Shown: positions 1,861-64,000 of the stretch, piece after piece | Layout: every line of letters starts with the position of its first letter | Position numbering within the stretch: the first letter of the stretch is position 1 | DNA from: Mytilus edulis | Lineage: Eukaryota | Direction of reading: 5' to 3' | Assembly: GCF_963676685.1 (NCBI RefSeq) | Contig: NC_092344.1 | Coordinates: 111,600,001-111,664,000, forward strand | DNA: 64,000 nucleotides | Notes under the pieces: model-generated | Seen by the model: the letters and a program-made list of their open reading frames with translations, nothing else | The model's database searches: none | What the model was told of the DNA's origin: nothing | Program-made: the position numbers and the translations under genes

Positions 1861-3319
1861 AACCTTATTGATGAAAGTTTGATCCATTTACAATGTCGAA
1901 ACTTACCACATATAATTTTTAACTTAAGTTTAAGTTGTTTGTGAGTATCAATAAAACGTATAAATTAATCCGCACAATTGATCAAACTTTCATCAATAAG
2001 GTTAAAGGTCAATGTTCAAAAGTTTTAATCTTTAGAAACAAAACCGGACAAAACTGTACACTTTCCGTAATCATGAAACAATAGAGTTTGTAAAATGTTT
2101 GTAATAACCATGAACTGTAAAACTAACAAACTATCTATAAATATGAATTCACTGCATAAATTCCCTGGTTATCCAGTGACTAATTCACAGGGATACTCGG
2201 CCAACTGCTGTAGGTCGAGTTATTTGTCATAACAGCAAAGAAAAGTGCAATAAAGATATTATTTTATAAAAAAAAAAAAAAAAAAAAAAAAATTCTATCT
2301 GTTTCGGCTTGAGGGCAATCACGGAATAAAAAAAGAATCCGAAAAATCAGTTACATATAGATAAATCAAATCGTAGTTCAAAAAGTTTCTCTCTATATAT
2401 GTAGTTGAACAATACATGCACCGACAATCGACTAAGTTGTGCGCTTGTTCTGTAAGTTTTTATGGCACTGTTGTTTTGGCTATTAGAAACGACGTCAGGT
2501 TGCCGCCGTAAGAAATTTAATGCGTGCGACATCTTTTTCACCAATTTTCAAACATTTTTTTCTCGAAAAGTACGAATGCTATGGAGATCAATATAGATAT
2601 TTTGAAAAGACTAGAAAAATACTACAACTGTAAGCAACGTTTTTGCAAAAAATGAACGTGTGACATTTTATTCACCAAATTTAAAAATTTAGGATCTTTT
2701 TTGTTTTTGTGTTTGACCGATTTTGCGTTTGAAATTAATTAATTACAGAAAAACAACATTATACTAGCTATATCATTTTCTCACCTGATGTCATCATTTA
2801 TACGTATTTTTAACTGTTTTCGTTAAAGTAGCTTCGAAAATGAAGATGGGATACAATGAAACTTTGCAGATTTGGCTGGCGTAACAGAATAAGACGCCAT
2901 TAGCCTTCAAACAAACATATCATAATGTTCATGGCAATTCGCGGCAAAAAGGAAAAAATAATGAAAATCGGCAAAAAGAAAGTCGAAAAGAAGGCTTATC
3001 CTTCAGTTTTCGTCGTCAAATTTTACCCGAGACAGCCCATTATTTTTCAAAATCCATAATCAAATGCATAACAACTCGAACAAATGCGTTCTATTATGTT
3101 TTGATGTAGATAATTGAACAAGGATATTCATATCAAGCACAATGATATCTTTGTTTTTATTAAAAAAACGTTTTTTTTCTGCACCTGCAGCACAGTTTTA
3201 CCCATAAAACATACAAAAAACGTAAACGTACGAACATCGCACGTAACGTCATAGATATTGAAATGATTGCTTATTTATTTAATTATTTACAAGATTGATC
3301 GTTTATATAAATATATAGA

Positions 3320-3840
3320 GATTAATACATGGCCTTTTCCATATCAGCCTGGGTATCATCCCGAGACCCCCATATCAGCCCGAGACGGAGTCGAGGTGCT
3401 GATATGGGTCGAGGGATGATACCCAGGCTGATATGGAAAAGGCCATGTATTAATCGCTTTATTATATACTTAGTAGTAAATACAGATAAATTGTATGTGT
3501 AATACAATCATTGGCAAGCGTGCTGTATCAGCCACCCGTGATGATATCGATATCAGCACGGTTGCAAAAGCTTTATCACACCTTTAATCTGTATGACGTC
3601 ACGTCATCGATTGCAGTCACTGTTCAAAGGCTTTCAAATCCCTAATCTGTATGACGTCATGTTACATAAAAAAACATCTACATGAGGTATATGTATATAA
3701 TAAAGTGTATATGATATGGCTTTTTCAATATCACACACCATATCAACCCTCAACCAATATAATCCCTCGAGCAGAGCTCTTGGGATTATATTGGTGTCTC
3801 GGGTTGATACGGATGCGATATTGAAAAAGCCATATGATAT
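3320..3840. repeat. Element with two related long hairpins (3320-3455 and 3714-3835)
   Basis: GATTAATACATGGCCTTTTCCATATCAGCCTGGGTATCATCCC is inverted at about 3413-3455. The second hairpin is ATATGGCTTTTTCAATATC...GATATTGAAAAAGCCATAT. TAATCTGTATGACGTCA occurs twice in the spacer. Confidence 0.7.
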
Positions 3841-5302: not shown

Positions 5303-5397
5303 GGGTTATGTTCTTCTCATATATTTTATGATAGTATGATACTAAACCCCTAACGGGAGGGATTGTACCTGATATTCATATGATGAAGACATAATCT
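5303..5397 (+). promoter_or_regulatory. Type II SECIS element (copy 1)
   Basis: AUGA (5328-5331) / UGAU (5370-5373) core, about 11-bp helix II, apical AAA followed by the CCC-CUAAC-GGG mini-stem, and lower helix GGGUUAUGU..UCAUAU / AUAUGA..ACAUAAUCU. Confidence 0.75.
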
Positions 5398-5578: not shown

Positions 5579-5669
5579 GGCTAGAGGTATAGGGGGAGGG
5601 TTGAGATCTCATAAACATGTTTAACCCCGCCGCAATTTTGCGCCTGTCCCAAGTCAGGAGCCTCTGGCC
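5579..5669 (+). ncRNA. Circularly permuted (P5-type) twister ribozyme, copy 1; predicted cleavage U5622/A5623
   Basis: GGCUAGAGGU(P5) AUA GGGG(P2) GAGGG [P1 region] U^AA CCCC(P2) GCC GCA-AUUU-UGC(P3) G CCUG-UCCCAAGU-CAGG(P4/L4) A GCCUCUGGCC(P5). This matches the twister core element by element. Confidence 0.85.
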
Positions 5670-5770
5670 TTTGTTAGTCTTGTATGATTTTAATTTTTTG
5701 TTTCTTGTGTATAATTCGGAGTTTAGTATGACGTCCATTATCACTGTACTATTATGCATATTTTAGGGGC

Positions 5771-5838
5771 CAGCTGAAGGACACCTACGGGTGCGGGAAT
5801 TCTCGCTACATTGAAGACCCATTGGTTGCCTTCGGCTG
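5771..5838 (+). ncRNA. Conserved multi-branch RNA structure of unknown function in the PLE 3' tail
   Basis: Closing stem CAGCUGAAGG/CCUUCGGCUG, a CACC-UACG-GGUG hairpin, a CGGG-AAUU-CUCG hairpin, UUGAAG, and an ACC-CAUU-GGU hairpin. Confidence 0.55.
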
Positions 5839-6606
5839 TTGTTTGCTCTATGGTCGGGTGGTTGTCGCTTTGACATATTCACCATTTCCTTTCTCAATTT
5901 TATTAATAATACTTTTAGATATTTGGATGATATTTTGGCTCTCAATAATGACGACTTCAGTATGTATATTAATGAAATTTATCCTGTTGAACTTACTTTA
6001 AATAAAGCTAATACTAACAATGACCACTGCCCTTTTCTCGATCTTGATATATATATCACTAATGGAAAGCTGAATACTAAAATTTATGATAAAAGGGATG
6101 ATTTTTCATTTCCTATCGTTAATTATCCGTTTTTAGATGGTGACGTTCCCTTGTCACCATCTTACGGTGTTTATATATCTCAACTTGTACGATTCGCTCG
6201 TGTATGTAACAATGTTTTAGATTTTAACGAGAGAAATTTATGTATTACTGAAAAATTATTACACCAGGGTTTTCGATATCACAAACTAGTCAAAACATTT
6301 ACTAAATTTTATCATCGGTATAAAGACATCATTCGTAAATATAGCTCAACATGCAGACTTCTAATACGTTCAGGTATTTCACATCCAATTTTTTATGGAA
6401 ATATTCTTTATAAAGCACAAAGGTGTCAGTATTCACCTCAGAAACTTACAAAACCTTTGAATAGACTTATTAAGAAAGGATATAATTACGATACTGTTGT
6501 CAAGTCATTAAAGATTGCATATTTTGGCGTTAATATTGAGTCACTGATAAGGTCTTTGCATCGGAACTAAACACATTTATTCTAAAAACAGTTCTTGGCA
6601 TGACAC

Positions 6607-6881: not shown

Positions 6882-6972
6882 GGTTAGAGGTATAAGGGGA
6901 GGGTTGAGATCTCACAAACATGTTTAACCCCGCCGCATTTTTGCGCCTGTCCCAAGTCAGGAGCCTCTGGCC
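6882..6972 (+). ncRNA. P5-type twister ribozyme, copy 2 (one P2 mismatch)
   Basis: GGUUAGAGGU AUA AGGG GAGGG UUGAGAUCUCACAAACAUGUU U^AA CCCC GCC GCAUUUUUGC G CCUG UCCCAAGU CAGG A GCCUCUGGCC. Confidence 0.8.
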
Positions 6973-8990
6973 TTTGTTAGTCTTGTATTATTTTAATTTT
7001 AGTTTCTTGTGTACAATTTGGAAATTAGTATGGCGTTCATTATCACTGGACTAGTATATATTTGTTTAGGGGCCAGCTGAGGGACGCCTCCGGGTGCGGT
7101 AATTTCTCGCTAAATTGAAGACCTGTTGGTGAACCTCTGCTGTTGTTTTTTATTTGGTCGGGTTGTTGTCTCTTTGACACATTCCCCATTTCCATTCTCA
7201 ATTTTACTGTGATGAACTTTCGTACAGGACTGCTTTGTGTATTTTTGACATGGAAGTCTTGACCAGACTATGACTTTTTGACTCTTGACCTATGTACTTT
7301 GGGTGTGTCATCATGATACAGTGTGTTCCTTGGTTTATTACCCTGACATAAAAGTATAATTCTAAATTGACCTTGCTTCTGAATTTTTAGCATGAAGATG
7401 TACTGTTATAAGATGGTGAGTCTTGTGGCACGAGAAACTTCATATGAGCTTTACCTTTGCCCTCATTGTACAACTTGTATATTTTGTTTGAATTATATGG
7501 AGAATTGTCTGATTGCACTCATACCACATATTCATCTATATTAGATATATAGATATATTTGTTAGTTTTGTGTACAACGATGACCCTTTCCTCAACATCC
7601 GCTTTGTGATTTTTTTAGTCATGGAACTCTTGACCAGTCTATGACTTTTTGACTCTTGACCTATGCATATTGGGTGTGCCTCTTGGTATGATTACCTTGA
7701 AAAAGTCAGGAGTCTCTGGTTTATGTTAGTCTTGTGTGTTTTTAATTGTAAGTTCGGTTTTATGTATTGGAGTTTGAACTAGTACACATTTTGTTTAGGG
7801 GCCTTTTGAAGTCCGCCGGCGGGCGAGGAATTTTCTCACTTTGTTAAAAAGCCATTGGTGGCCTTCGACTGCTTTTTGCTCTTTTGTCATGTTACTGTCT
7901 CTTTAACACATTCCACATTTCCATTCTCAATTTTTGAATTGAAGAATGTTTTGATCAAATAAAAACTAAATCTTTTAATTGCCGTGGAAAATTAGAGAGA
8001 ACATTTACTGCTTCAATAGCACCATGTGCTGCTAGTTGTGATAGATATTTTAAAATGTTTCAATCATTTACCTTGGATTTCATTTCATGGACATGCGGAT
8101 ATGGATAGTTTGTTTAAACATCTTAAAAAATCACACAGAAGGTATACGCATATCAATAAACTGAACTCAGTGCAAAGAACCTTTAACATAGAGCTCAATT
8201 TATTGAAACACTTCGTTATGCTGGTCACTGTCTGTTACCAAACTGAACCGCAATCCTAAAAAAAATATGCAAGTGAATTCTATTAGAAGTAGAATTCAAA
8301 GGAAGTAAATAAACTGTTTATACTGAAATAAATATACAATATGTCTATGAGCCACAGATGCCACCGCTTGTGAAAAAAACCCACAAGTAAACTTCCACAT
8401 ATAGATGCAGGATTCACGTAATTTTTACTGTTTTGTGACCATAAGCATTGTGTATAAGTTTCAAAACATTTGGTTGAGGCAAACTAAAAAAAAACCCTAC
8501 TAGTATACATATTTTTTAAGGGGCCAGCTGAAGGACGCCTACGGGTGCGGGAGTTTCTCGCTACATTGAAGACCCATTGGTGGCCTTCGGCTGTTGTCTG
8601 CTCTATGGTCGGGTTGTTGTCGCTTTGGCACATTCCCCATGTCCTTTCTCAATTTTAAAGTTAAAGAACAGAAACAACAGATTTAGCATTTTTCCTATCT
8701 TAAGGCTCCGTGTTGATGTTTGTATCATTAGTACTCGTACCAACTTCTTATATCTAATAACTCATGAACAGTAACACCACCCAATATCAAACTTGATAGA
8801 TCTGTGTTATGAGGTAATAAGCATTACATATAAGGTTTATAACATATTTGATTGAGTCAAACTTATTAAAAAGAACGAAAACGAAAAATTCAGCATTTTC
8901 TATGTTTTTAAAGGAACATGATAACTTAATATGAACGGTAAAAGTGACGCTACCAAATATCAATTTTATTTTTATGTGGAAATAAGCATT

Positions 8991-10182
8991 GTCCCAGGTT
9001 AGGGAGATGATGGAGACCCCGCTAACATGTTCAACCCCGCCTTATTCAGTATGCATGTGTCTGTCGCAAGTCAGGAGCCTATAAATATGTATTTCTTTTC
9101 TCGTTTGAATTTCGTTTTTTTCTATGTTTTGATGTTATAATATTGTTTCACAAAAAAGCGAGAACGTTTGGTACCATTAAAACGTGTAATCCCTCTGCAA
9201 ATGTTTGCACCTGTCCTAAGTCAGGAATCTGATGTACATTAGTTGTCGTTTGTTTATGTAATTTATACGTGTTTCTCGTTTCTCGTTTTTGTCGAGCCTG
9301 CAACTTTTGTTGCAGAAAGCTCGACATAGGGATAGTGATCCGGCGGCGGCGGCGGCGGCGGCGTTAGCTAATTTCTTTAAAGCTTTATATTTTAGAAGGT
9401 GGAAGACCTGGATGCTTCATACTTTGTATATAGATGCCTCATGTTACGAAGTTTCCGTCAGCAAAAGCTTTATACATAGGACTATCAACATAATATCAAT
9501 GATTAGTAAAGAAGGCGAGACATTTCAGCGTGTGCACTCTTGTTTTTATATAGATTAGACCGTTGGTTTTTCCCGTTTGAATAGTTTTACACCTCTAGTA
9601 ATTTTGGGGCCCTTTATAGTTTGTTGTTCGGTATACGCCAATGCTCCGTGTTGAACGCTGTACATTGACCTATAATGGTTTACTTTTATGAATTGTTATT
9701 TGGATGGAGAGTTGTCTCATTGGCACTCAAACCACATCTTCCTATATCTATTTGCTCATTATTGAAGGCCGTATGGTGACATATAGTTGTTAATTTCTGT
9801 GTCATCTGGTCTCTTGTGGAGAGTTCTCTTTGGCACCCATGCCACATTAGTTGGAGGGCGGAGATCCCGCTAGCATGTTTAACCCGCCTCATTCTGTTTG
9901 AATGTGCCTGTCCCAAGTCAGGAGACTGTAATTCATGAATTGTCGTTTGTTTATGTGTTACATATTTGTTTTTGATCATTTATTGTACATAAATTTGTCC
10001 GTTTCTTTTCTCGTTTGAATTGTTTTACATTATCATTTCGGTGCCTTTTATAGCTGACTATGCGGTATGGACTTTGCTCATTGTTGAAGGCCGTAAGTTG
10101 ACTTATAGCTGTTAATTTCTGTGTGATCTAGTCTTTTGTGAAGATTTCTTATTGGCTCTCATGTCACATCTTCTTTTTTATT
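8991..10182 (+). mobile_element. Stack of PLE 3' tails from different families with three decayed twister motifs (about 8995-9080, 9157-9232, 9853-9928)
   Basis: CTGTCGCAAGTCAGG, CCTGTCCTAAGTCAGG and CCTGTCCCAAGTCAGG (P4/L4), each preceded by a YAA-YCC-type segment. Tails end in GTTGTCTCATTGGCA...CCACATCTTC-like sequence. Confidence 0.75.
9286..9543 (+). mobile_element. Short HINE (Helentron-associated non-autonomous element) nested in a PLE tail
   Basis: 5' TTTTTGTCGAGC...GCTCGACA inverted repeat, (GGC)n microsatellite, 3' AGGCGAGACA sub-terminal repeat plus short hairpin, inserted in a T run. Confidence 0.65.
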
Positions 10183-10604: not shown

Positions 10605-12709
10605 TACGGAAGCGTATAAGGGACAAAGAAAAAATAAAATTGGCAGTGAACTTTTTTTTCAAAGTCGAAATTTTGACATTTCAAATCTTAAAATTTCGAC
10701 TTTAACTCGAAATTTTAACTTTTCTTATCTTGAAATTTTGACTTTCTAAAATCTTGAAATTTCGACTTTCTAAAAAGTCGAAATTTTGACTTTTTCAGAA
10801 TTCGAAATTTTGACTTTATAAAAAGTAGAAATTTCGACTTTAAATCAAAATTTTGACTCTTTTCAAACTCGAAATTTCGACTTTTTTTAAACTCAAATTG
10901 TCGAAATTTCCTCAGTATTTATATGTTTGTGATTATCACATTCACAGTCATGTATATCAGCAAGCGGAGAGCCATATACATCATAAACTTGATAAGCATA
11001 TTTAATAAACTAAACCATGATTTTTAAGAGATTATTTTAGATAGAAAATCTTGTTTTTTTTTGCCGAAGAATAAATAAAATATGTTTCACGTTTAAATAC
11101 ATATTTCAAGTCTGGACTTCAGATATGTGTATGAAGACAACCCCGTTATTCCGACACACCTATATTACGACATACTTTTATTCAACAGTCTAATATATAA
11201 AGACAAGTGTTAATAGTTTGTGTCATAAGAAAGCCAACTTGTAGAGAATGTTCCAGAAAAAAGAACCAACATTTCAAAATTCCAAAACTATAAAACTGAG
11301 CAGCTCATTGGTCGTCCTGAATATGCATGGCATTTTTGGCTACTTGATGTACCATTGTTTAAACAAGGCAAAATCAGTGACTTGCTATTGGGAAACCAAA
11401 CAGGCCTTTGAAACTATGATGCTAAATGTCCTCAGATCTGACGATCCTAATATGACAGTGTCGTGGAAACTAAAACATCGAATATAGGAAAACATTTTTT
11501 TTTCTGTCAACATGCATGTTCTTTCCGAATGAAACTCTCAATGTTAAATGCTTATCCATAACAAAACCAATTTCTGAATATAAATTGCCGAAATGTGTTG
11601 ATGACGCTTTAATAATTTGCGTACATGTCTACTCCTTCTAAAATTGTAATAACTGTGTTTGAATACTAACATCAAATTTTTAAAAGTACTTAGAAAAAGT
11701 CAAAATTTCGAGATTTCAAAAGTCAAAATTTTAACTTTAAAATAAAAATTTCGAGACTTTAAAAAGATGAAATTTTGAGTTCAAAGTCGAAATTTTGAGT
11801 TTAAAAAAAAGTAGAAATTTTGAGTTTAAAATAAGTCGAAAATTCGAGTTTTTAAAAAAGTCGAAATTTGGAGTTTTAGTGGAAATTTCGACTTTTTATA
11901 AAGTCAAAATTTCGAGTTTTAAAAAAGTCAAAAGGAGTAGGTCCGGTAAGGACTGATTTTGACCTCAAATTTCAGGTTCATCTGACGAAAGATTTTGACC
12001 TCTTTTTAAGCACTTAAGTGTTTATTTCATTTGAATCAATTAGTTTATGTGAAAGATTAAAACTAATTTAGTCATTAAAAACGATCCGATTCAAACTCAA
12101 ATATGAAAAATCGACCAAATATGCCAAAAATGTCAATTTTCAGATGGTTTTTGTCAAAAATGAAAGTGGCCGCATCCGTGTTCATCCTCAATCTTTATAT
12201 ATGTTATGTATTATCATAAAATACAATTTACATTTCAATATTAAGGATGAACACGAATGCGGCCACTTTCGTTTTACACGAAAACCGTCTAAAATTTAAC
12301 TAAAATGCTAGAATTGTGAAGATTTCAGTAGTTTAGCATGACTTAATGGTGCTAGTACCCGATATATGTGCATTGTAATGTCAAAAAACGGCCCATATTT
12401 ATATAGCACAAGCATTTTACTGTCCAATAAATAACTAAAAGTTTACATTTTAACAATTTTGTAAAACTGCTATATTTTGGGGCCAAAAAGGGGTCTTACT
12501 GGACCTACTCCTTTCAATTTTTCAAAAAGTCGAAATTTCAAGATTTTAGAAAGTCAAAATTTCATGTGTAAGTCAAAGTTTCGAGATTTGTAAAGTCAAA
12601 ATTTCAAGTTAAAGTCAAAATTTCGAGATTTGAAATGTCAAAATATCGTCTTTGAAAAAAAAGTTCACTGCAAATTTTATTTTTACTATGTCCCTAATAC
12701 GCTTCTGTA
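10605..12709. mobile_element. Non-autonomous foldback-type TIR transposon, IS3EU-like
   Basis: Termini TACGGAAGCGTA...TACGCTTCTGTA, long TIRs built from AAATTTCGAC-type repeats, and a 6-bp flanking duplication GGTTTG/GATTTG (one mismatch). Confidence 0.7.
11932..12513. mobile_element. Kolobok-like non-autonomous DNA transposon nested in the right arm of the IS3EU-like element
   Basis: TIR AAGGAGTAGGTCCGGTAAG / CTTACTGGACCTACTCCTT with a TCAA target duplication (a TTAA variant). Confidence 0.75.
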
Positions 12710-13780: not shown

Positions 13781-16700
13781 CTAACTATCCCAGTCGACAG
13801 ACTGCAGCAAAACATTTTGCGGATCGTATAACCTTCGTCTAAACTCGTTTTCCAGTTTTGGAAGAAATTCAAATTTGGTAGATGTCCTTGCCCCAGTGAT
13901 CTTATCAATATAAGTACCAATCATCTCAGTTCCTCCTCTCTCTAGTTCAACTCTACCATGAGAAATTGGTGGCCATAATCCACCAGGTGGCGGTACATGT
14001 ATAACTGCATGCAATGTTGTTCCTTGGTCTGTAACGTACATTGGATTTTGGTTTTCAGAAATGTATATTTCTACTTTGCCATCTTCTTTTCTTTTTACTT
14101 GTGTGGTTTCATCTTCATAATTATAGGTTAAAGATATACTTCGTCTCTCTCCCATATCAACTTGTTCGTCAATGGTGTAACACTTATGAAAAATATCGTC
14201 ACACATTTCTTCCTCATTGTCAATAAATAATTTAGTGGAGTCATGGACGTCGTGTTGAAACGGAGCTGTGACAGCCACCCCGTACGTATAATTACAAGTA
14301 CGCGATGAAACGATTCTTGGATTATGACCGTAAAGTACTGCCCCTTGAAGAACAGCCTGTCCTCCCTGTTGCGGAATAATTACTTCTTTGTCAGGGAATG
14401 CTTCTTTTATTCGAACACGTATTATTTCCGACTCAGAAAATCCCCCCCCACCATCATAATGGTTGACACTCCAGAACACTGTGGATCTTTTAAAATATTG
14501 GTTATTTCCTCAACTATGCATTTGATCGATTCAGCAAAGAAGCTAAGAAATATTTTTCTGTGATAATTAACTTGTCTCTTTTTATGCTCAAATTTTCTTT
14601 CATGCTACCGTCTTGTATTAAATCTGAAAAACTGCAGCCGGTTGTTTCGGAAAGAATATCACACAGTGTAACTGGTAATCTTACAACGACATTTTTACCT
14701 ACAAATGTTTTCTTTTTGGTTTCAAAGTTTTTCATCATATCTGTATAATCATAAATATGGTTTTCCTTAAATTCACGAAGGACTTCTCCACCGCATATAT
14801 TCGTGAGCAGTCGTCTGTATTCTTGGTTGATAAATTCCCCGCCATACGGTCCTCCACATGCCCTATGTATTATAGCAAGACCGCCATTTTCTGCCACTTT
14901 TTGTGCTGATATGTCAATTGTTGCACCTAAAAATTATATAAATTTTGATATAATTAAAATATGGCTTGCATTTACAGTATAAAGAAAAGGAGAAATAAAG
15001 AAGCCTAAGCAATCTAGCAAAAGGAAAATTTCGTTACTTTCACTTTTCTTGTGAACTTTTTAATTTAACCTAGCCAAAGTGAAAACACTAAGAGTCCTTT
15101 TAGTAAGTTTATAGTTGAGTTATATTCTCTGATGCATAATTGAAATTTAAAACTTTAAAAATATGGATCTGCGCGAAAATGACACATTGTTCGTATATAG
15201 AATTTTCAAAACGAGAGAGAGAATATTATGATATAGATACTATAATTTATACAGAAATTGCATTTAACAACCTGTAAAACATAGGCATGAAAGGAGATAT
15301 TTTCCTTTTGTCGACATCAATCATACGTTTGCTACCAATCGGAGGGGAAAACCCAATTAGTTGAAAAAATTGAGTTGTACATGTATATGGAAAATATCAA
15401 TTATTCAAAAATGTCAAATGAACATACATTCCTGTAGTAAGTATAATGACATTTCCCCGTCTAAACTTAATTTACATAAAGTTGATTACAAAAAGCACAA
15501 ACCTCCACCATCTACAACTATAAATTTTTTCCCAGGGTCAAAATTCTTCAATGAAATTGTGTTATTATCACCAGCTACTCATTCTAGAGGCAAACTTTTG
15601 GCATTAATAGAAGCAGCTTCTGGTTCATAAACCAATGAAAATTTCTCTAAATGAATACCGGCCTAGAATAGAAAACAAAAAGAACAAAAAGAATCTTTTA
15701 AAATATTTTTTTTTTTTTAAATCATAAAATATTCATAATTTTGATTTCAACTGATTTTTCTTGATAATCAAAATAAATATCGTTCGTCGTAATTTGAAAT
15801 TCTTGTCACCGTCGATATACAGTATAAAAGATGTAACACAAGTGGAGCAGGATTGACCACGTAGCCTTCTGAGCATTTCAGTTCATTCTAGATCTTTATG
15901 GAATTGCATTAATTTTATCTAGTATTAGTTTTCTGTACCATCTTCCGTGAATTTTTTTAGTTTTGTTATTTAAATAGTTTTACCATGTTCACACGATACG
16001 GACATAATTAACAGGAGTGTGCTTCTTACACAAAATAAGATCTATCCGAAAAGGGAGGAAGAAATCGAAACAACATATTCTTTTACATTCACCACAAAAT
16101 GTGTCAGTGGTTCATTTTTTTTTTGCGGTTTTAGATGTTTGGATACCAGTAAAGTCGTATGATCTGTCAGAGAAGCTTATACATCGTGTTCTTTCCCCCG
16201 ATTATGCCATTTTAATTGACTAAAAAATATTGATTTGAATGACAGATGATGAATAGATGGCGGAGGACGCCTTCACTGTTGTGTTCCTTTCCGAGGTCAT
16301 GCGATTCCTTCTGTTGTTTGTTTGGTACCTTGGTTTGTCTCTTCTTCATCGATTTACATGATTTGAAAATCGTCAGAATAAATGCAAAATGTATATATAT
16401 GTTACAGGCATTTTCTAAATTTAGGTATTTTGTAAAATGACTGAATATTCAGGCAATTTGTAAAATGCCTAACCTTGACAGGCATTATACAAAATGACTA
16501 AAAATACCTAGTCATTTTGTAAAATGACTGAAATTTTGAAGCAAAATTCTACAAATTGCCTGTTCAGTTTCAGGCTGAAAAAAGTTGACAAAATCACAAT
16601 ATATTGCAAAGAAAATAACTTATGGTTCATTAGAATTAATTTATTTTCCAAAAACCAGCTGGAAAGGGTGGTATATCAGATGATGTGTACTTTTTTGTGA

Positions 16701-26472: not shown

Positions 26473-28105
26473 GATGAAAAAAGTTCGAAACCCAAAACAA
26501 GTACAAAGTTGAAGAGCACTGAGGACCAAAAGTTCCAAAACGTTGTGCCCAATACCGATAGGGTTTTCTGCCTGGGATAAGAAAATCCTCATTACTTAGA
26601 ATAATTTATACTTTTGCAAACAGTAAATTTTATAAAATAACTATATAACAGATATACATGATAAAACCGAAGTGGTGACTAAATACAGAATAAAAACAGA
26701 TACAATACAGAAAAACAACCTAATCCAGCACATAAAAATACACAGCCGAGTTAGCTAAAGCCATCAACGCACAAAGTGACGTCACATTTGAAATTCTAAA
26801 AAAAACCCACACAAAGTGACGTCACATTTTAATTTCTAAAAATATTTCCCAAAAATAAGATAGAATTAGGATTGAATCAAGATTAATTTGTAATACTGGT
26901 ATTACATTTATTAATAAAAATGCAAATAACAATACTTATTAATATCAAACTGTGATAGTAATTAGATAATTAATTGTATTATCTAGCTATTTCAATGTTT
27001 CATCTGAATCAAACTGTAAACCAAATATATCGTATAAATTTCGTTGACGCAAACTAAAATATAAAAACAAAAATCTGGTAGGTGATTTCAGAGACGAACA
27101 AATCTAGATATAGGAATATGTGGTGTGAGAGGTCTTTTTAAAAAATGAGATAATTTCAGAGGCGCACAAACCCAGGTTTCCGAATTTTGAGAAGCTCTAC
27201 AATACGATTTTAGTTCTCTGCTATAAGAAGGCATGTAAGCGTCAAAGCTTACACTATTTATATAATACAATCGTTTGTCGGATTTTCTCTTTAATTAGGT
27301 AAACGCTGTTTATATAGAGAATCTATCGAGATAGACGCTCAAAATGTCTTAGATGCATGATCTTTTTTGTTAAGGGTTTTGAAGTACTCTCAGATATGTA
27401 TTTAATGTTTTTTTGTTGATTGGATGTAGATGTACTCTACCACGTCCAATCTGTGTTTTTGTTAGAAGCTTTTCTATTTGTATCCATCTGATAGTTAAGC
27501 CTTTTTAACTGTTTTTTTGTTGTTGTACTATTACAACGCTGTCTCAGGTTAGGGGGATGATTGGTGCCTTCAAACTTGTGTGGCTCCGCAACATTCTGTA
27601 TGTGTATGACCCAAGTCAGGAGCCTGTAATTCAGTGGTTGTCATTTGTTGTTGAGTATCATTTTTGTTTTTGTTCATTACTTTTTACATAAAGTATACCG
27701 TTAGTTTTCTTGATTGAATTGTTAAATGTTATTTAGGGGCCTGTTATAGCTGACTTTGTGGTAAAGGATTTGCTCATTGTTGAATGCCGTATGGTGACAT
27801 ATGGTTGTTATTTTCTATGTCATTTGGTTTCTTGTGGAAAATTGTCTCATTGGTTATTATACCGCATCTTATTTTTAGATTAAGTTCGTTCCTCCATTGG
27901 ATTCACAACTTTAATAATAAGTAGATGCCTACCTTAAAAGTCCTTTGAACTTCATTACCTGACAGACTTAATCAGGTAGCTTCCACTGTTCTACTATCAT
28001 TATTAGGATTAAAATTGGCAACGTGTTATCAAAACCAAATAGTTTTATTTTATTTAAACAGTTTATGATATGAAATTAAAATCTTATACATTAAAATGAA
28101 TCAGG

Positions 28106-31100
28106 TCATTCGGAAGCCGCCGGATCAAACAATCTTTTCTTTTCTCCTTTAGTGAATTTATAACCTGAAGGTAGAAATTCAAATTTAGTAGAAGTCCTTT
28201 CTTTTGTTGTAGCATTTACGTAGGTTCCAATCATTTCAGTTCCCGCCACTTTTAGTTCTACCCACCCAAATACCTGTTCAGGCCACTGTCCTCCAGATGG
28301 TTTCACGTGAATAACGGCGTGTTTTTGGCAGCCTTCATCTGTTACAAACTTTGGATCTGGCTTATCAGAAATGTATATTTCTGCCCTGAGCGGATGTGTT
28401 CGTCTACATTGGGAAGCAGAAGTGACAAAAGTGTCATTCAGTTCAATTTGTTCAATATCCCCGACCTTAACATCCTGATCTGCTTTAAAACAAACATGAA
28501 AAACATGGCGGCACCACTCTTCATTATCCCAAGTATATCGTTTGCTTTCAGGATGAGCCCCTGTTTTGAATGGAACACTTAAACTTACACCATATGTATA
28601 GTTACATACTCGTGAAGCAACAATGTTTGGATTATGTCCATAAATGACAGCACCTTTAAGAACTGATAAACCTCCATCTACCGGAACAAAAACATCTAAT
28701 TCTGGAAATGCTTTTTTAACAGCATCTTGTAAAACTTCAGACTCTGAGAACCCACCAACCATCATTATAGCTGAGACATCTTCACAACGTGGATGGTTGA
28801 GAACAGATTTGATTTCTTCGACTGTCAGATTACATGATTCATTGAAGAATGTTAGAAACAAATCGGGTTTTATAAACATTTTATCACGTTTTGTGCTTAT
28901 TTTATCTTTAAAAGTCGATTCGTTTATTATACTCTCAATCGAACTATCTTCAGAATCGGCTATAATATCTTTTAGTGAAACAGGAAATCTAGTATTAACA
29001 GTTTCTTTACTGTTTAATTTATATGTCTTCTTTTTACGCTCAAAATCTCTCATCATTTCATTATAATCTGCTCCTTGTTCCTTTTTAAATTGTTTTAAAA
29101 CAGGACCCCCAACCAGCTTTGTTAGAACGATTCTATATTTCTCATTTACCATTTCACCACCCCAAGAGCCTCCACATACTTTGTGAATGATTTTTAATTC
29201 TCCATTCGGTGCGACTTCTTGAGTAGAAATATCAACTGTACCGCCTACAATATATTAATTAAACTATTATACGGTTTGGTATTTTACAATATAGACTTCT
29301 ATGTTTAAAATTCTTGTTTGAATAGAACATTTAAAACACAAAAAATAGATTATCAAGATCTATGTTTTAACAATATTTGATATTTCAACTTGATAATTCA
29401 GTAGTTCATTGACGATACAAAACACAGGGAAATCTCTCTAACTTGTACCAGAATTATACTTTTCAATTGACAATCATCTTCAGAATAAAATGCCTGTACC
29501 AAATCAGGAATATGGCAGTTAAGGATTTTCCTTTTTTAAATTTCCTCGGAGTTCTGTGATTTTTCTTTTTTAATATTCTCGTCTCTGTAAAAAAGGTCTT
29601 ACCTCCAGCATCTACAACAATGAATTTGGTTCCTGGATCAAAAGTCTTCAGAATAGTTGACTTGTTTTCGCCTATGAATTTTTCAACTGGCAATAGCCTG
29701 GCATAAACAGATGCAGCTTCTGGTTCGAACACAATGGAAAACATATCACCATGTATACCTGCCTGAAGGATAATCAGTTTTATTGTTAGTATATTCAATA
29801 TGTAATCCTAGGTATACTTGATGTTTATTGTTTATAGTTAGCTTTTGTATATTAAAACATAGCAGTTATCAGAATTTTCAATAGTGATTAGTAAGATCTT
29901 CCATCCTAAACGTAAGTTTGCCAACATGTGATATTAAAGCTTTTGTTCTATCTTGTTCCTGGAAATTTTCAGTTACATAGGCGAGCATCAATCACTTAGA
30001 CATTAATATGCCAGAACTTTCATCAACAACTTAGTTGATGAGTACGACGAAAAACTATTTCAACAAATATTTGGTATTTCATTGGATACTTATTATATTG
30101 GTTTGTAGCAGAATTCAAAATAAATCTTCTCAAGAGATAAAATAGAAACCGTATTGCCAAGTTGTTTAATTTCTCGTTTTAAAGATATATTGAAAATGCC
30201 ATGTGCCTAAAAAAAACTACAGATCATTAAGTGCTTGTATCGCAGTTAAGGTGACATTGAGGACAGAACACACAAATAGAAGATAAGCTTCCTATCTTGT
30301 TTTCTATATAGATGAACGACTTCAAATTAGGATTGATAACAAATGTGTTAACTTTGCATGATTACCCTGTCAATTCACCTGGTCAAGTTCCATATCGAGT
30401 TCGTGTAATTTCCTCTTTTATTAATTCTGATTTATATATTCTTTATGCATTTAAACTATCATTTTCTCTTTTTTTTGAATCAATGGGAGCACTTCACAGT
30501 CATAATTTTATTTGTATCAGAAGCACCATTACATACCACATAGAAAGCAATTGCTCGCTTATTTGCCTTACATATTACGAGGACCATTTGCTTGCTATTT
30601 AGTTCTTATTAAGGGCAAACGATACAGTTACAGGGGAGGTAATGACGTTGCTAACGTAAAATGTTATTTTCGCGATGTCAAACTATGACATATCGGGAAA
30701 AGATGCATTTTTCGACTATTTTTTATCATTCAAACTGATTTAATTTGAAAACGAGTGCATGGACCCCTATTTTTAAAACGACATTTTGTTTCATTCTGAA
30801 GGGAGATTAATGTAGACCAAATTTTATAAAACTGTAAATAGAGGAATTTTTTTAATTTTGATAAATATACAGCAAAAATATACGACTTTTTCTTAATTCA
30901 TGACCATTTGATAAACATGAGTTATTTCTGAATAAAAAATGCATAATTTTTTAGGATACTTATAAAATACAAAAAATATAAATTATCTAACAAAAAACAA
31001 TTTGTGTTTATCTTTTAAAACAAAAAAGTTATGGCTTTCTTTCGAAAGAGAAAATACGGCCACAAATCCGAATTTTGAGCAAATATACAAAATTTCGACC

Positions 31101-36269: not shown

Positions 36270-36316
36270 TATGCCAGACGCGCGTTTCGTCTACATAAGA
36301 CTCATCAGTGATGCTC
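36270..36316 (-). ncRNA. Minimal type I hammerhead ribozyme (PLE/retrozyme type) with intact core
   Basis: Minus strand: GCAUCA CUGAUGA GUCU-UAUGU-AGAC GAA ACGCGCGU C^UGGCAU. Stem III is a perfect 8-nt palindrome. Stem I is weakened by two CG-to-CA changes. Confidence 0.85.
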
Positions 36317-37853: not shown

Positions 37854-38171
37854 TTTGTTAGTCTTGTATGATTTTAAATTTTAGTTTCTTGTGTATAATT
37901 CGGAGTTTAGTATGACGTCCATTATCACTGTACTATTATGCATATTTTAGGGGCCAGCTGAAGGACACCTACGGGTGCGGGAATTCTCGCTACATTGAAG
38001 ACCCATTGGTTGCCTTCGGCTGTTGTTTGCTCTATGGTCGGGTGGTTGTCGCTTTGACATATTCACCATTTCCTTTCTCAATTTTATTTCAATTTAAATC
38101 TAGTATTATGACTAGTATTCTTAGAAATATTAAAGTAGAATGAATAACATTAAAAGAAATTCTGACGTCTG

Positions 38172-41100
38172 TCAATCCATTTCACGCATTCTTTCACGTT
38201 CTCCTTTTAATGTTTTATAACCTGTTGGAAGGAATTCAAACCTCGTTGATATTCGGTCCTTTGTTTCTGCGTTCACGTAAGTGCCTATCATTTCGGTGCC
38301 AGCAATTTCAAGCTCTACCCATCCAAAGGCATACACAGGCCATATTCCATTAGGGGGGTCGATATGAATTTTTGCATGTAAGTTGCATCCTTCGTCTGTA
38401 ACATACATCGGCTTTTTGTCATCAGAAATATAAATTTCAACAGCAAAAGGTTCCGTTCTTTTAGTTTTGGAATCTTCACTTTCAAAAGTATTATTAATCT
38501 CAATCATACCTATATCCCCCACATGAACGTCTTGACCTTCAACAAAACAAACATGAAAAATGTGTTTACACCAGTCTTCATTATCCCATCTATAATATTT
38601 TCCCCTTCGGTGCTCTCCTTCCTTGAAAGGACGGCTTATGCTGACGCCATACGTATAATTACACACTCTAGATGTTACTATAGAAGAATCATGACCATAA
38701 ATTACAGCCCCCTTTAACACAGATAATCCACCTTCAACTGGAATGAAAACCTCTAATTCTAACGCGTCTTTAATAGCTTTCTGTAACATCGGACATTCTG
38801 AAAACCCCCCAACTAACATAACAGCTGATACGTCACGACATCTGTCATGCTTCAAAATATCTTTAATTTCTTTAATTGTCATTGAAATGGATTCACTGTA
38901 AAACGATTGAAATAGTTCTCGATCGATGAATAGTTTGTCTCTTTTCACCCTAAGTTTACCACTGAAGCGAGAATTTTCTATTATGTTTGAAATACTGCAA
39001 CCCGTCTTCGATTCTAAAAGCTCTGCTAAGTTTGCTGGAAATCTAGTTGATATATCAGAGTTTTCATTTCCTTTGAAGGATTTCTTTGCCGTTTCAAAGC
39101 ACCTCATCATTTCATTATAATCTAATCCCTGTGTTTGTTTAAATTCCATGAATACATCTCCTCCTAGCAGTTTCTTTAGTAATTTCCGATACTCTTGGTT
39201 GACCCATTCACCACCCCACGAACCTCCACATATTTTATGTATTATTTTCAAGTGACCATCAGGTAAAACTTCTTGGGCAGATATGTCAACAGTACCACCT
39301 ACAAAAAAGTTATATGGTTATTGTATCCCTTACAATTACTTTTGTAATTGATACGTCAAATGCACTAGGTATAAGTCAAAAATATGTTAACTATAGAACT
39401 ATTAAACCTACAAATAGGTGACATGTCAACTGTACTACCTACTCAAAAATGACATGTAAATAGAACAAACATCAATAGATTGATATGCTAAAAAAATCAT
39501 CTTAGGATTCACTTATTCTCAAAACGTTAATTGGATACGCTCGTTTGGTTATGTTGACAAAAACATAGATGTGGGTATCAGAAATGCTTGAACGATTTGC
39601 CGTCGGTAAATTTTCATATAAAGAAATAAGTATAATAATAACTGTATACTGCACTAGACGTAATATTCTGTGTACATATTTTCTAGCTTTACCGAGACCA
39701 TACCGGGAGGGTCATTTAGAAATCTAAGCTTATCGTAGAGATTTGTCCAAATGCGATCCAAAACAAATACGGTGCAATAAAACTTCATCTTTATTCCTTT
39801 ATATTTTGATTTTTTTTAGCATAACAGTGCAACAAAAAAACATTGAACAAATTAATAGGTTATTTTTGATTTTTAATGCTTGGTTTTGCTTTGTACTTTT
39901 CACGATATTTAGCTATTTTCATGATAGTTGTTGTTTGAAGAGCGCATATTAAATAATAATATTACCCCCAGCATCAACTACCATAACCTTTCTGCCAGGA
40001 TCAAACGATCTTAGTATAGTTGTTTGATTTTCTCCTACAAATTTTTCTACAGGTATGAGACGCATATATATTGATGCTGCCTCAGGCTCATACACAATGC
40101 AGAATTTATCACCTGTAATTCCTGCCTGAAAGAAAATGAACGTCGAGTGTGTTATTATTTGCAATACACAACTAAAATTACATATATTTTGTCAATGTTC
40201 AGATGACGTTCAACGTGCTATAGTCGCATAAAAAATGCAAACACTAGTAATCGCTCAAAAGAATACCACTTACTTCAGATGACTCTAGGGTTCGTCACAG
40301 AGGTTTTTTGATTAATGAACAATAACGTTTCACATATTTAGTTCTCTGGACAAAAGGCTGTTTTAAAAACTAAACTCATTGAAACCGTATTCATGTAAAC
40401 TCCAATTTAACCCCTTATCTAAAAATGGGCTACGAATGAATCGGGCGTGTAAATGGAAGAATGTCAACATTGAAAGCGAAACAAGGACCGATTCGATCAA
40501 CAAAAAACTGCTGTGGATTCATTATTATTCATTTGATATAAACTTTCTTGGATTTCGTGGTTACAGGTCAACCACGAGTTTAAATGTTCAACGAATTACA
40601 AATTTTCAATAAGGTTTTTATGCAGATTTGGGCAAATCCACAAAATTGAATGTTCATGAAAATACCACCTTTCATCAATCCACGAAAATTGGTACTTACG
40701 AAAATAAATAAATCCACAGTAATCCCGATGCAGGTAGAAACGAAAATTAATAAATATATTTTAACCTATTAATATGAAATCAAATAGACATAGAAAAATC
40801 AAATTGCACGAGTTCGCTATTTATTTATATGCATGTTTATGTTAATATCGGGTTATATAACCATCTGAAATTCTTCGGTGGTCACCATGATGGTTCTAGA
40901 ATAAAATACACACGAAATGTTAATACATATCATCGAGCATATGCACTGTAAATTATATATTTTAGACATTTTATGAATTGGATATACGTTTTAGTATGTT
41001 ATAAAAAAAACATAAGAATTTGAGTCAAATCAATGAACATGAATTTGACAGCTAGTGTCCCTTTAATACTGTTCCCCATGATTTTTTTATATATAAAAAA

Positions 41101-48100: not shown

Positions 48101-48449
48101 TCAAGAAGTGACAGTTGGTGAAAGAAGTGCAGTCACAATCAAAGATTCATACAAAGATAAAAATAGACAGGCGAAACGAACAATGAAACATACACTCGAT
48201 CTGTACTTCACAACCGAGAAGGATCCCAATTTTATTGATGAAAAAGGCTGTATGAAATTAGGACAAGTTCAAATTCCACCACCAGATGGCAAAGAATGGC
48301 CAATGGAATGGACAGGTGATTTTGAACTCGAAATTGGTGGTACAGAAATTATTGGCCATTTTAAGGACAGAAATTCGGGGAAAACAGTCATAGCTTCATT
48401 TAATGCGTTCGGAGTACCATTCCATTACAATACACCAAAAGCTATGTGA
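45145..48449 (+). CDS. HSPA12: HSPA12-like protein D (600 aa); exons 45145-45441, 45995-46213, 46823-46982, 47323-48449
   Basis: The spliced frame is open with GT-AG introns. Motifs IDIGTTYSGYAFS, WVLTVPAIW, YEPEAAA, VDLGGGTAD, MVGGFSES and VLKGAVLFG. Confidence 0.94.
46300..46600 (+). mobile_element. Degenerate PLE tail with a decayed twister (46442-46530) in intron 2 of gene D
   Basis: P5 TGTCATA/TATGACA, P4/L4 CTTG-TACCAAGT-CAAG. The UAA/P2 segment is missing. Confidence 0.6.
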
Positions 48450-62336: not shown

Positions 62337-64000
62337 CATCAGTAAGTAGGAGAATCTGGACGATATTTATCTAAACGCACTCAAGAACATCTGTATCGTT
62401 TTGAAAGACCCAATAAATTCAAAAATATCATTTACCAACACCTTAAGAAGCACAACCATCCTTTTAAATATTTAGCAGTTCAACCTATAGAAGTAGTAAA
62501 TAAGCAGCCTGGTGAATCGCATTCAAAGTTTGTACGATCACGGAAAATAATTGAATTAAATTGGATTAAAAAATTACAGACAGTTTACCCTCTCGGTCTA
62601 AATGATAATATCATGGGAATTGGTAATATATCTAGAACCAATTCCGTTAACATTTTGGATATAGTTTCTAAAACTTTTCGTAAAAAACGTTCTCACGGTC
62701 GTAGAACAAATCGCAATCTAAGAAAATTTCGGGCCAATCATACCAATATTTCGGACCTAATTTTTATTTCAAAAAACAACGGCAGTCATTATCTGTTAAC
62801 AAAACTCTGTTCGTTACCGGTTAATAAGTTAAATAAAATTTTGGAGGATTGCAACACAATTTCATATAGCAGTCCTAAGTATGAAATTGTTCAAATTATT
62901 ATGGCATATTGTTATTCTAAATTATTTCCCAAAATTGATCGCCCTGAAGATCATAAAAAACATTTTATTAAAATTAAGTATGTCAATAAAGGCTTTGATT
63001 TTGTAAATATTGCCGGTATATTTAACGACCATTCTGTTAAAGAACAAATTCCTGGATATTTTGACAATACTGAGCTACCTCTTATTTGTTATAAGCAGAG
63101 CCAAATACAATGAAAGTCCCAACTATGTATTGGCTTCCGAAGCTACACAAAACCCCTTACAAAATAGATTTATTTCGTCTTCAAGCCATTGTTCAACTAC
63201 TAAATTGTCTATTCTTCTTACCAGCACACTTGGTACAATTAAAAACCTGATAATAAATTGTTCAAATAAGGCCTTCGAAAATAGAGAAATAAATTACTTT
63301 TGGAGTGTCAAGAACTCGTTGGAAGTACTTGATAAATTGCATACTTATATTGGTGATTTTGAATCTGTTCAAAGTTTTGATTTTTCTACCCTGTATACCA
63401 CATTGCCTCACATTTTCATTAAGAAAAAATTCACACACCTAATTAAATGGGCATTCAAAAAATCTGAATGTGAATATATATGTTCAAACTCTTTTAGGTC
63501 ATTTTTTAGTAGCAATAAACAAAAAAACTATGTTAATTGGACATGCTTTGATACTATATATGCCCTTGAATTTTTACTAGATAACATTTTTGTTCGCTTT
63601 GGGGATTCCGTATATCGTCAGATTATCGGAATTCCAATGGGGACTTACTGTGCACCACTTATTGCGGACCTGTTTTTGTATTGTTATGAGTTACAATTTA
63701 TGACAAAAATAAGCAAAGACCCATCGAAACAACATCTGATAAACAAATTTAATAATACTTTTAGATATTTGGATGATATTTTGGCTCTCAATAATTACGA
63801 CTTCAGTATGTATATTAATGAAATTTATCCTGTTGAACTTACTTTAAATAAAGCTAATACTAACAATGACCACTGCCCTTTTCTCGATCTTGATATCTAA
63901 ATCACTAATGGAAAGCTGAATACTAAAATTTATGATAAAAGGGATGATTTTTCATTTCCTATCGTTAATTATCCGTTTTTAGATGGTGACGTTCCCTTGT
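62337..64000 (+). mobile_element. Naiad/Chlamys-type Penelope-like element with an N-terminal GIY-YIG followed by RT; defective, running off the window end
   Basis: HQ*VGESGRYLSKRTQEH...ELNWIKKLQTVYPLGLND is in frame with and upstream of ORF 62613. There is an internal deletion after TELPLICY (about 63093), then PTMYWLPKLHKTPYK with a frameshift near 63163, SFDFSTLYT, GIPMGT and RYLDD, and a premature TAA at 63898-63900. Confidence 0.92.

What the first reader, a model, noticed from the sequence alone, without database searches (positions are those of the whole stretch)
5765..5838. Unnamed multi-branch RNA conserved across divergent PLE tail families
Seen: family 1 (5771, 7075, 8526, 37955, 61737 minus) has a closing stem CAGCUGAAGG/CCUUCGGCUG, a C(UACG)G or C(UCCG)G tetraloop hairpin, a second hairpin, UUGAAG, a third small hairpin and a UGRC-like linker. 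Family 2 (10039, 22341 minus, 27736, 45720 minus) has UAUAG/CUAUA, CUG-ACUAUG-CGG, AUGGGC-UUU-GCUCAU, GUUGAAG, GCC-GUAC-GGU and GAC. Family 3 (9606, 17016 minus) has the same layout with GAGCC-AA-GGCUC. The stems differ in sequence, while the topology, an upstream GGGGCC and the unpaired UUGAAG are retained. It does not fit the hammerhead, HDV, pistol or tRNA consensus by eye. Candidate roles are RT recognition, IRES, nuclease block or a new ribozyme.
Basis: partly seen in the sequence, partly recalled or inferred. Interest (0 to 1): 0.7.

Follow-up and report, generated by a model that had tools for sequence, protein, structure and literature searches.

The report
Bulged RNA rod in Naiad tails
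Several distantly related families of Naiad jumping genes keep, near the end of each copy, a predicted two-turn RNA stem with a conserved six-letter bulge (not the four-way junction first proposed), which likely serves as a handle by which the element's own copying enzyme picks out its RNA, a role that is untested.

Summary
It lies in the pseudo-LTR of selenoprotein-coding Naiad Penelope-like retroelements. Across 10 family representatives, 168 of 210 positions pair in one ungapped register, against 71-100 when slid. This gives a 21-22-bp irregular rod with a 3'-side bulge ending in UURAAG, an apical 4-6-bp hairpin and a G-run at the base. The proposed third hairpin pairs fully in only 4 of 10 families. 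The four-way fold is 4-25 kcal/mol worse in all 10, although its first hairpin can form in most. No Rfam family matches, and the ribozyme cores tested are absent. Insertions end 92-105 nt after the bulge, so the rod sits where stringent LINEs keep their protein-binding stem-loops; I rate that role at 0.45. Against it: 18 of the 21 more distant Naiad loci searched gave no comparable hit, and a separate terminal hairpin tracks the insertion end more closely. About 150 nt upstream lies a type-P5 twister-like fold with two palindromes in place of P1.

The parts
5766..5771 (+). G-run (GGGGCC) at the base of the rod; no cognate pairing partner found
   Evidence: G in 8-10 of 10 families at each of four columns; cognate duplexes no better than non-cognate, p=0.93 downstream and 0.50 upstream
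5771..5792 (+). 5' arm of the 21-22-bp irregular rod
   Evidence: ungapped register, 168 of 210 cells paired in 10 families; 15 of 22 pairs with changes on both sides in 8 families
5793..5806 (+). apical hairpin (3-6 bp, variable loop) stacked on the rod
   Evidence: MFE folds and descriptor hits
5807..5816 (+). 3'-side bulge of 8-12 nt ending in conserved UURAAG (5811-5816)
   Evidence: U,U,A,A,G in 10 of 10 and G in 9 of 10 at the third place; UUGAAG was the anchor used to collect copies, so its invariance is partly by construction
5817..5838 (+). 3' arm of the rod, with a mismatch at pair 13 (C-C in 4 families) followed by conserved G-C and A-U pairs
5856..5883 (+). terminal hairpin (core 5863-5875), 38-42 nt from its core start to the insertion end in three families
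   Evidence: pattern found in 7 of 10 families; ends
5901..5903 (+). 3' boundary of the insertion = inferred reverse-transcription start
   Evidence: 12 of 13 family-1a and 14 of 19 family-1b copies end at +92 to +95 from the bulge; read ends pile up at the same place
5580..5668 (+). type-P5 twister-like fold; predicted cut between 5622 and 5623; palindromes at 5602-5611 and 5613-5622 replace P1
   Evidence: Rfam Twister-P5 23.4 bits, E=0.0029, below the gathering score of 37.6; pseudoknot covariation and palindromes across families
5318..5382 (+). SECIS-like element after the ORF stop
   Evidence: Rfam SECIS_1 30.9 bits, below the gathering score of 35; four in-frame UGA in the full ORF
5903..6570 (+). 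3' part of the Naiad RT ORF of the next, 5'-truncated tandem copy
7067..7146 (+). further copy of the rod (family 1b); others at 7796-7875+, 8518-8597+, 9604-9682+, 10038-10115+, 17008-17086-, 22335-22412-, 27734-27811+, 37948-38026+, 45715-45792-, 61733-61812-
62346..63900 (+). broken Naiad copy: N-terminal GIY-YIG part followed by RT part
   Evidence: matches the full unit read

Best explanation
This is a conserved RNA element in the pseudo-LTR of one group of Naiad retroelements, predicted to fold as a 21-22-bp irregular rod with a UURAAG bulge, and it likely acts as a binding site for the element's own endonuclease/reverse-transcriptase protein so that its RNA is chosen as template. Shown: the host element is a selenoprotein Naiad; the rod register covaries across families; the helix length is nearly fixed; insertions end about 65-75 nt downstream of the rod. 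Inferred: the RNA folds this way in cells. Sequence-conserved spots (G-run, the mismatch with its G-C/A-U pairs, the bulge junction) lie about one helical turn apart and so would face one side for a protein. The exact start of copying would be set by the separate terminal hairpin, with the rod supplying affinity or family specificity.
For: Fold: 168 of 210 cells pair against 71-100 in eight slid registers; arms of the same family pair better than arms of different families (16.8 against 12.6 of 21; 0 of 20,000 permutations). In the 8-family alignment, 15 of 22 pairs change on both sides against 8.3 in shuffles, 0 of 500. Strand: 28 G-U against 4 A-C oppositions. Independent recovery: model R1, built without L167 and L205, finds them at the expected coordinates as ranks 1 and 3 of 17 hits in 70 kb (E 0.005 and 0.1). 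Position: 3' ends of 73 randomly sampled copies cluster at +92 to +105 from the bulge. Families 1, 2 and 3 all have RT upstream in long copies. Precedent: stringent LINE proteins bind a cognate 3' stem-loop, and a bulge and mismatch in that stem are needed (PMC4176376 and PMC1636434, abstracts). A Poseidon PLE starts reverse transcription internally and its minimal template reaches about 90 nt upstream of the start (PMC11167929, parts 1-2 of 4).
Against: No binding data exist. The rod is patchy: of 21 distant loci searched without filters only L167 and L205 gave a full match, and a third hit (L190) lacks the bulge. I saw no such rod by eye in the 11 published bivalve Naiad tails read (PMC8557442 supplement parts 20-23), so Naiads move well without it. 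The distance to the insertion end varies more from the bulge (93-103 nt) than from the terminal hairpin (38-42 nt) in three families. A hairpin 3' of the insertion end is shared with families that lack the rod (L121, L145, L158, L163, L175) and is a rival RT-binding site; the Poseidon protein needed about 55 nt 3' of its start site. The rod is not the MFE fold in 3 of 10 families (L144, L154, L156). Most representatives came from a descriptor that required pairing in this register, and the permutation controls ignore relatedness.
Confidence: 0.45

Rival explanations
1. The rod binds a host factor and serves the RNA's fate rather than its copying: it would support cap-independent translation, stability, export or intron retention of the uncapped RNA left by the upstream twister-like fold.
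For: In tandem units the rod lies about 145 nt after the predicted cut and about 430-520 nt before the start codon. Families lacking it have UG-rich tracts in the same place. The pyrimidine-rich tail ends in a 3'-splice-site-like CAG/UAG in five families, and PLE 5'-UTR introns are described (PMC8557442 passages).
Against: No pile-up of RNA starts at the predicted cut and no splice joint at that CAG among the joints and loose ends shown (depth there was about 10 and 146 loose ends were not shown). Only 2 of 73 genomic 5' truncations fall within 10 nt of the cut, while 23 run past it.
Confidence: 0.25
2. The element is a two-state switch between the rod and the first reader's four-way (cruciform) form, because each arm is a near-palindrome.
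For: Hairpin 1 pairs in 24 of 24 cells with one two-sided change; RNAalifold chose it on alignment A3; family 1a has a UNCG-type loop there.
Against: Hairpin 3 has no two-sided change and is complete in only 4 of 10 families. The four positions that would be loops pair across arms in 21 of 32 cells with 8 two-sided changes. The four-way form costs 4-25 kcal/mol more.
Confidence: 0.1
3. The conserved words (GGGGCC, TTGAAG) act at DNA level as internal-promoter or endonuclease-recognition motifs, and the stem is secondary.
For: PLE promoters lie in the pLTR, and the Penelope endonuclease needed the tail sequence (passages of PMC6765202 and PMC11167929). The G-run has no RNA partner.
Against: It does not explain 21-22 covarying pairs or the plus-strand G-U excess, although the plus strand is U/G-rich anyway.
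Confidence: 0.08
4. The rod is a new self-cleaving ribozyme.
For: Retroelement ends often hold ribozymes; the bulge is conserved in sequence.
Against: Only about 6 unpaired bases plus a G-run are conserved, and no pseudoknot partner was found. No known core is present. A twister-like fold already occupies the pLTR. A cut here would leave under 100 nt of template.
Confidence: 0.06

Closest known systems
3'-tail stem-loops of stringent LINEs (UnaL2, ZfL2; PMC1636434 and PMC4176376, abstracts read)
   Same: Irregular stem with bulge and mismatch close to where reverse transcription starts; sequence differs between families while shape is kept.
   Different: Here the host is a Penelope-like element with an internal start; the stem is longer (21-22 bp), the conserved sequence is in an 8-12-nt side bulge rather than the apical loop, and protein binding is untested.
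R2 3'-UTR recognition structure (PMC11194090, abstract read)
   Same: Structured RNA upstream of the template start; binding determinants and start-positioning determinants partly separate, as inferred here for rod and terminal hairpin.
   Different: No sequence or fold similarity tested or seen; R2 starts at the RNA 3' end.
Poseidon PAc internal initiation region (PMC11167929, parts 1-2 of 4 read)
   Same: PLE with sharp internal start sites in a stem-loop, matching genomic insertion ends.
   Different: PAc's region is inside the ORF and carries a hammerhead; the parts read describe no upstream rod.
Hepatitis B virus epsilon signal (recalled, not read; no Rfam match)
   Same: Stem, side bulge, upper stem and loop, bound by a reverse transcriptase.
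   Different: Epsilon's bulge is on the 5' strand and is itself the priming template; here the bulge is on the 3' strand and about 90 nt from the start.
Naiad clade of PLEs, selenoprotein type of Naiad_Scon and Naiad_Mmer (PMC8557442)
   Same: N-terminal GIY-YIG, CxC, DKA, RT, in-frame UGA codons, SECIS, tandem pLTRs.
   Different: The parts of the paper read describe no RNA structure at this position and report no canonical hammerhead; the Scon and Mmer tails show the twister-like fold but, by eye, not the rod.

Membership tests
Naiad PLE (host element) | GIY-YIG endonuclease N-terminal to RT in one ORF | tested here: met
   1048-residue frame in a 4031-bp tandem unit (L121) with QYVGETG before the RT motifs; Pfam itself gave no significant hit on the window fragments
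Naiad PLE (host element) | CxC motif and DKA in place of DKG | tested here: met
   CNC and PADKAAN in the same frame; criteria from PMC8557442 section 6
Selenoprotein Naiads | in-frame UGA at cysteine positions plus SECIS after the stop | tested here: met
   4 UGA after the likely start Met; SECIS_1 30.9-32.3 bits here, below gathering 35, 37.5 and 39.3 bits in two relatives
Stringent-LINE-type template stem-loop | conserved stem-loop near the reverse-transcription start | tested here: met
Stringent-LINE-type template stem-loop | specific binding by the element's protein, needed for mobility | not testable with these tools
   needs binding and TPRT assays
   complete in 4 of 10 families, ensemble probability <=0.001; no two-sided change
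Hammerhead ribozyme | CUGANGA and GAAA core | tested here: not met
   0 of 10 families on either strand; no Rfam hit at E<=10
HDV-like ribozyme | nested double pseudoknot P1-P2-P3 with catalytic C in J4/2 | tested here: not met
   my loose descriptor (from recall, no positive control run) fitted the plus strand in 2 of 10 families and the minus strand in 2 others, with no shared register; no Rfam hit
Pistol, hatchet, twister-sister, hairpin ribozymes, tRNA | match to the family covariance model | tested here: not met
   0 matches at E<=10 for 5740-5910 against 4227 families; pistol pattern 0 of 10
Type-P5 twister (upstream fold, 5592-5658) | core GARRR, UAA, P2, P4 with loop NYCYAAGN, two pseudoknots | tested here: met
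   all core letters aligned to Twister-P5, E=0.0029 but 23.4 bits against gathering 37.6; T1 and T2 changes on both sides in L146, L163, L223, L157
Type-P5 twister (upstream fold, 5592-5658) | intramolecular P1 helix | tested here: not met
   0-2 of the first 4 pairs in 15 of 17 rows; two palindromes instead in 14 of 17 rows against at most 6 in 2000 shuffles
Type-P5 twister (upstream fold, 5592-5658) | self-cleavage at U/A | tested here: inconclusive
   no read-start pile-up and no excess of 5' truncations at the site, 2 of 73; neither test is sensitive

The most novel reading that the evidence does not exclude
The Naiad pseudo-LTR is an ordered RNA machine (SECIS, dimer-forming twister, bulged rod, terminal hairpin, start site, downstream hairpin), and the rod is the enzyme-binding domain: the first defined RNA ligand of a telomerase-sister reverse transcriptase, with three contact points one helical turn apart acting as a ruler. 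It would be a counterpart of the protein-binding domains of telomerase RNA.
Probability: 0.15. Interest if true: 0.75.

Novelty: new variant of a known kind. Interest (0 to 1): 0.45.

Why it matters
How Penelope-like reverse transcriptases, the sister group of telomerase, recognise their RNA is largely unknown; one element has been reconstituted. This motif gives a compact, covariation-backed target in a very young, abundant family (over 140 near-identical RT matches scored; roughly one motif copy per 13 kb), with natural variants from 10 families for swap experiments. It also corrects the fold that such experiments should test.

Tried and rejected
Rfam: whole window, 8 weak hits, none on the motif; the motif alone, none at E<=10. 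RNAalifold on MAFFT alignment A3 returned only hairpin 1 at -0.82 kcal/mol; A3 had L205 and L167 out of register, so pair counts were made on the 8-row A4 and on an anchor-based register for all 10. Family 4 (old copies like 18285) and a two-copy variant were left out of the 10 representatives because only decayed copies were found. Pseudoknot partners for the G-run and the bulge: none better than non-cognate controls, p 0.10-0.93. My kink-turn pattern matched every sequence on both strands and so says nothing. A T-loop reading of UURAA (consensus recalled) fits the letters but lacks a consistent closing pair. RNA reads: both strands covered and 45% of laid reads run on into unrelated flanks, so most come from read-through copies; no evidence on cleavage, circles or splicing. 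Viral contigs held no relatives. A DNA search of the own genome with the family-3 tail returned nothing although copies exist. The RNA model could not be run on the whole genome, so copy density comes from 98 fetched stretches. The original twister paper was not available. Literature searches that found no description of this motif; subscription papers and bioRxiv supplements were not covered. Scan notes: four word searches and one sequence search aimed at or covering the rod showed no note on it.

Full report
Host element. The finding lies in a repeat tail followed at once by an RT fragment. A complete 4031-bp tandem unit of the same family (L121) reads, with TGA taken as selenocysteine, as one frame with a GIY-YIG domain before the RT, a CxC motif, DKA, and four UGA codons after the likely start. 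These are the diagnostics of Naiad PLEs in Craig et al. 2021 (PMC8557442; I read passages, section 6 and supplement parts 1 and 20-23). The family is young: the 144 scored RT matches were nearly all 99% identical. The genome has 1.37 Gb and at least 14 large contigs; that it is a mussel is my inference, shared by earlier scan notes. Families 2 and 3 are also tails of RT-coding Naiads.

Layout of the pLTR in window coordinates: SECIS-like 5318-5382; twister-like 5580-5668; G-run 5766; rod 5771-5838; terminal hairpin 5856-5883; insertion end 5901-5903. In tandem units the 5' UTR then runs about 385 nt to the start codon.

Observation. Model R1 found 78 matches at E<=0.05 in 98 own-genome stretches of 10 kb. 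That is about one per 13 kb, or roughly 100,000 in the genome by extrapolation; 20 of the stretches flank the window.

Fold. I took one natural copy per family: three from this genome (1a, 2, 3) and seven from the 91 related loci fetched with an RT alignment (L152 for family 1b, L144, L154, L156, L177, L205, L167). Anchoring on the bulge and on the base before the apical hairpin gives an ungapped register in which 168 of 210 cells pair, against 71-100 in eight slid registers; cognate arms beat permuted arms in 20,000 of 20,000 trials. On the 8-row alignment, 15 of 22 pairs show changes on both sides (shuffle mean 8.3; 0 of 500), and slid versions fall to 33-48% paired. The four-way form is 4.4-25.1 kcal/mol worse in all 10.

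Results against the rod. It is not the MFE structure in L144, L154 and L156. Hairpin 1 can form in all 8 aligned families and was RNAalifold's only helix on A3. Most representatives passed a descriptor that asked for this pairing, and the controls ignore relatedness. The cleanest independent support is that R1, built without them, returns L167 and L205 at the exact coordinates as ranks 1 and 3 of 17 hits in 21 distant loci; rank 2 (L190) has the G-run and a stem but no bulge, and is unexplained.

Conserved letters. They concentrate at the G-run, at pairs 13-15 (often a C-C mismatch, then G-C and A-U), at the junction pairs, and in UURAAG. These spots lie about 9-12 bp apart, so they would face one side of the helix (inference). 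G-U oppositions outnumber A-C 28 to 4, pointing to the plus-strand RNA.

Distribution. In RT trees the rod occurs in the branch holding the mussel-type families and, through L167 and L205, in the sister branch where most members lack it; at least two changes are forced by well-supported branches (six rows left out of the first tree for short matches, one of the second). Families without it have UG-rich tracts there. I did not see it in the 11 published bivalve tails read by eye. An old origin with several losses, or tail swapping, both fit.

Position. In 1.04 Mb of DNA not selected for the motif, 73 copies had 3' ends clustered at +92 to +95 (family 1), +99 to +102 (family 2) and +99 to +105 (family 3) from the bulge. 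RNA reads show the same sharp edge. By analogy with the Poseidon element, whose insertion ends match its internal start sites (PMC11167929, parts 1-2 of 4), this edge is the start of reverse transcription. The terminal hairpin keeps a tighter distance to it (38-42 nt) and so is the better candidate for the start ruler. A further hairpin 3' of the edge is shared with rod-less families.

Mechanism. The best-supported role is a protein-binding element for template choice, like the 3' stem-loops of stringent LINEs (abstracts of PMC1636434 and PMC4176376) and the R2 3' UTR (abstract of PMC11194090). The fold and position are supported here; binding is inferred (0.45). Patchy distribution argues that it adds specificity or affinity rather than being essential to all Naiads. 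A host-factor role in translation, stability or intron retention comes second (0.25). A switch (0.10), DNA motifs (0.08) and catalysis (0.06) are less likely.

Known families. No Rfam model matches the motif at E<=10; hammerhead and pistol cores are absent in 10 of 10, and HDV-like folds are sporadic. Eight literature searches found no description. I also saw passages and the abstract of PMC10085705, passages of PMC6765202 and part 1 of 5 of bioRxiv 10.64898/2026.07.22.740005; none mentions it in what I read. Subscription papers and preprint supplements were not searched.

Neighbouring twister-like fold. It matches Rfam Twister-P5 below threshold. Of 56 related 3' UTRs, 40 gave a parse, collapsing to 17 rows (one, L218, is probably false and L144 was misregistered); 14 of 17 have two palindromes in place of P1, against at most 6 in 2000 shuffles. 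I reached this before looking at scan notes; 28 earlier findings already describe it, so it does not raise this score. Cleavage was not visible in reads or in 5' truncations.

Verdict. A real, apparently undescribed structured RNA of a Naiad subgroup, with a simpler fold than proposed and an untested but plausible role. New variant of a known kind; interest 0.45.

Noticed in passing
window 5580-5668 (also near 6890-6970, 9160-9230, 9850-9925): Type-P5 twister-like fold with two palindromes replacing P1, present in most related Naiad tails; already noted by this scan.
   Followed up: yes
L121 (minus strand, just 3' of the tail), L141:3444, L145:1538, L158:2681, L163:3167, L175:2706: A hairpin about 25-60 nt 3' of the insertion end, shared between rod-bearing and rod-less families and visible at the 5' end of the published Naiad_Scon consensus; a strong candidate RT-binding element.
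   Followed up: partly
L141 about 3420-3430; L145, L158, L163, L175 at the same place: The pyrimidine-rich tail ends in a 3'-splice-site-like CAG/UAG just past the insertion end, which would put the rod inside a 5'-UTR intron; no splice joint seen at low depth.
   Followed up: partly
L212 and L218 3' UTRs; published Naiad_Sglo, Olur, Tgra, Pmar tails: Another Naiad group has a different conserved, possibly pseudoknotted motif at the 3' end instead of the twister-like fold (seen by eye only).
   Followed up: no
L163 about 2495-2545 of its 3' UTR region (locus about 3040-3090): A possible degenerate rod with CUGAAG, seen by eye; model R1 did not report it.
   Followed up: partly
L190:2747-2809: G-run followed by a stem without the bulge, scoring E=0.0075 with R1, about 95 nt after the stop in a very divergent element.
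   Followed up: no
window 36271-36312, minus strand: Type I hammerhead-like match (31.7 bits, gathering 34).
   Followed up: no
window 13781-14509, 28106-29254, 38172-39317, 47298-48449: Four long ORFs similar to one another that look like exons of an HSP70-12-like gene cluster (name recalled; Pfam gave only a weak ATPase hit for one).
   Followed up: no
window 10605-12709: Large inverted arms built from 24-bp tandem units around a near-perfect hairpin at 12132-12300; foldback/MITE-like.
   Followed up: no
L221-L231: Naiad RT copies, some in tandem arrays, inside assemblies labelled as bacteria; most likely animal contamination.
   Followed up: no
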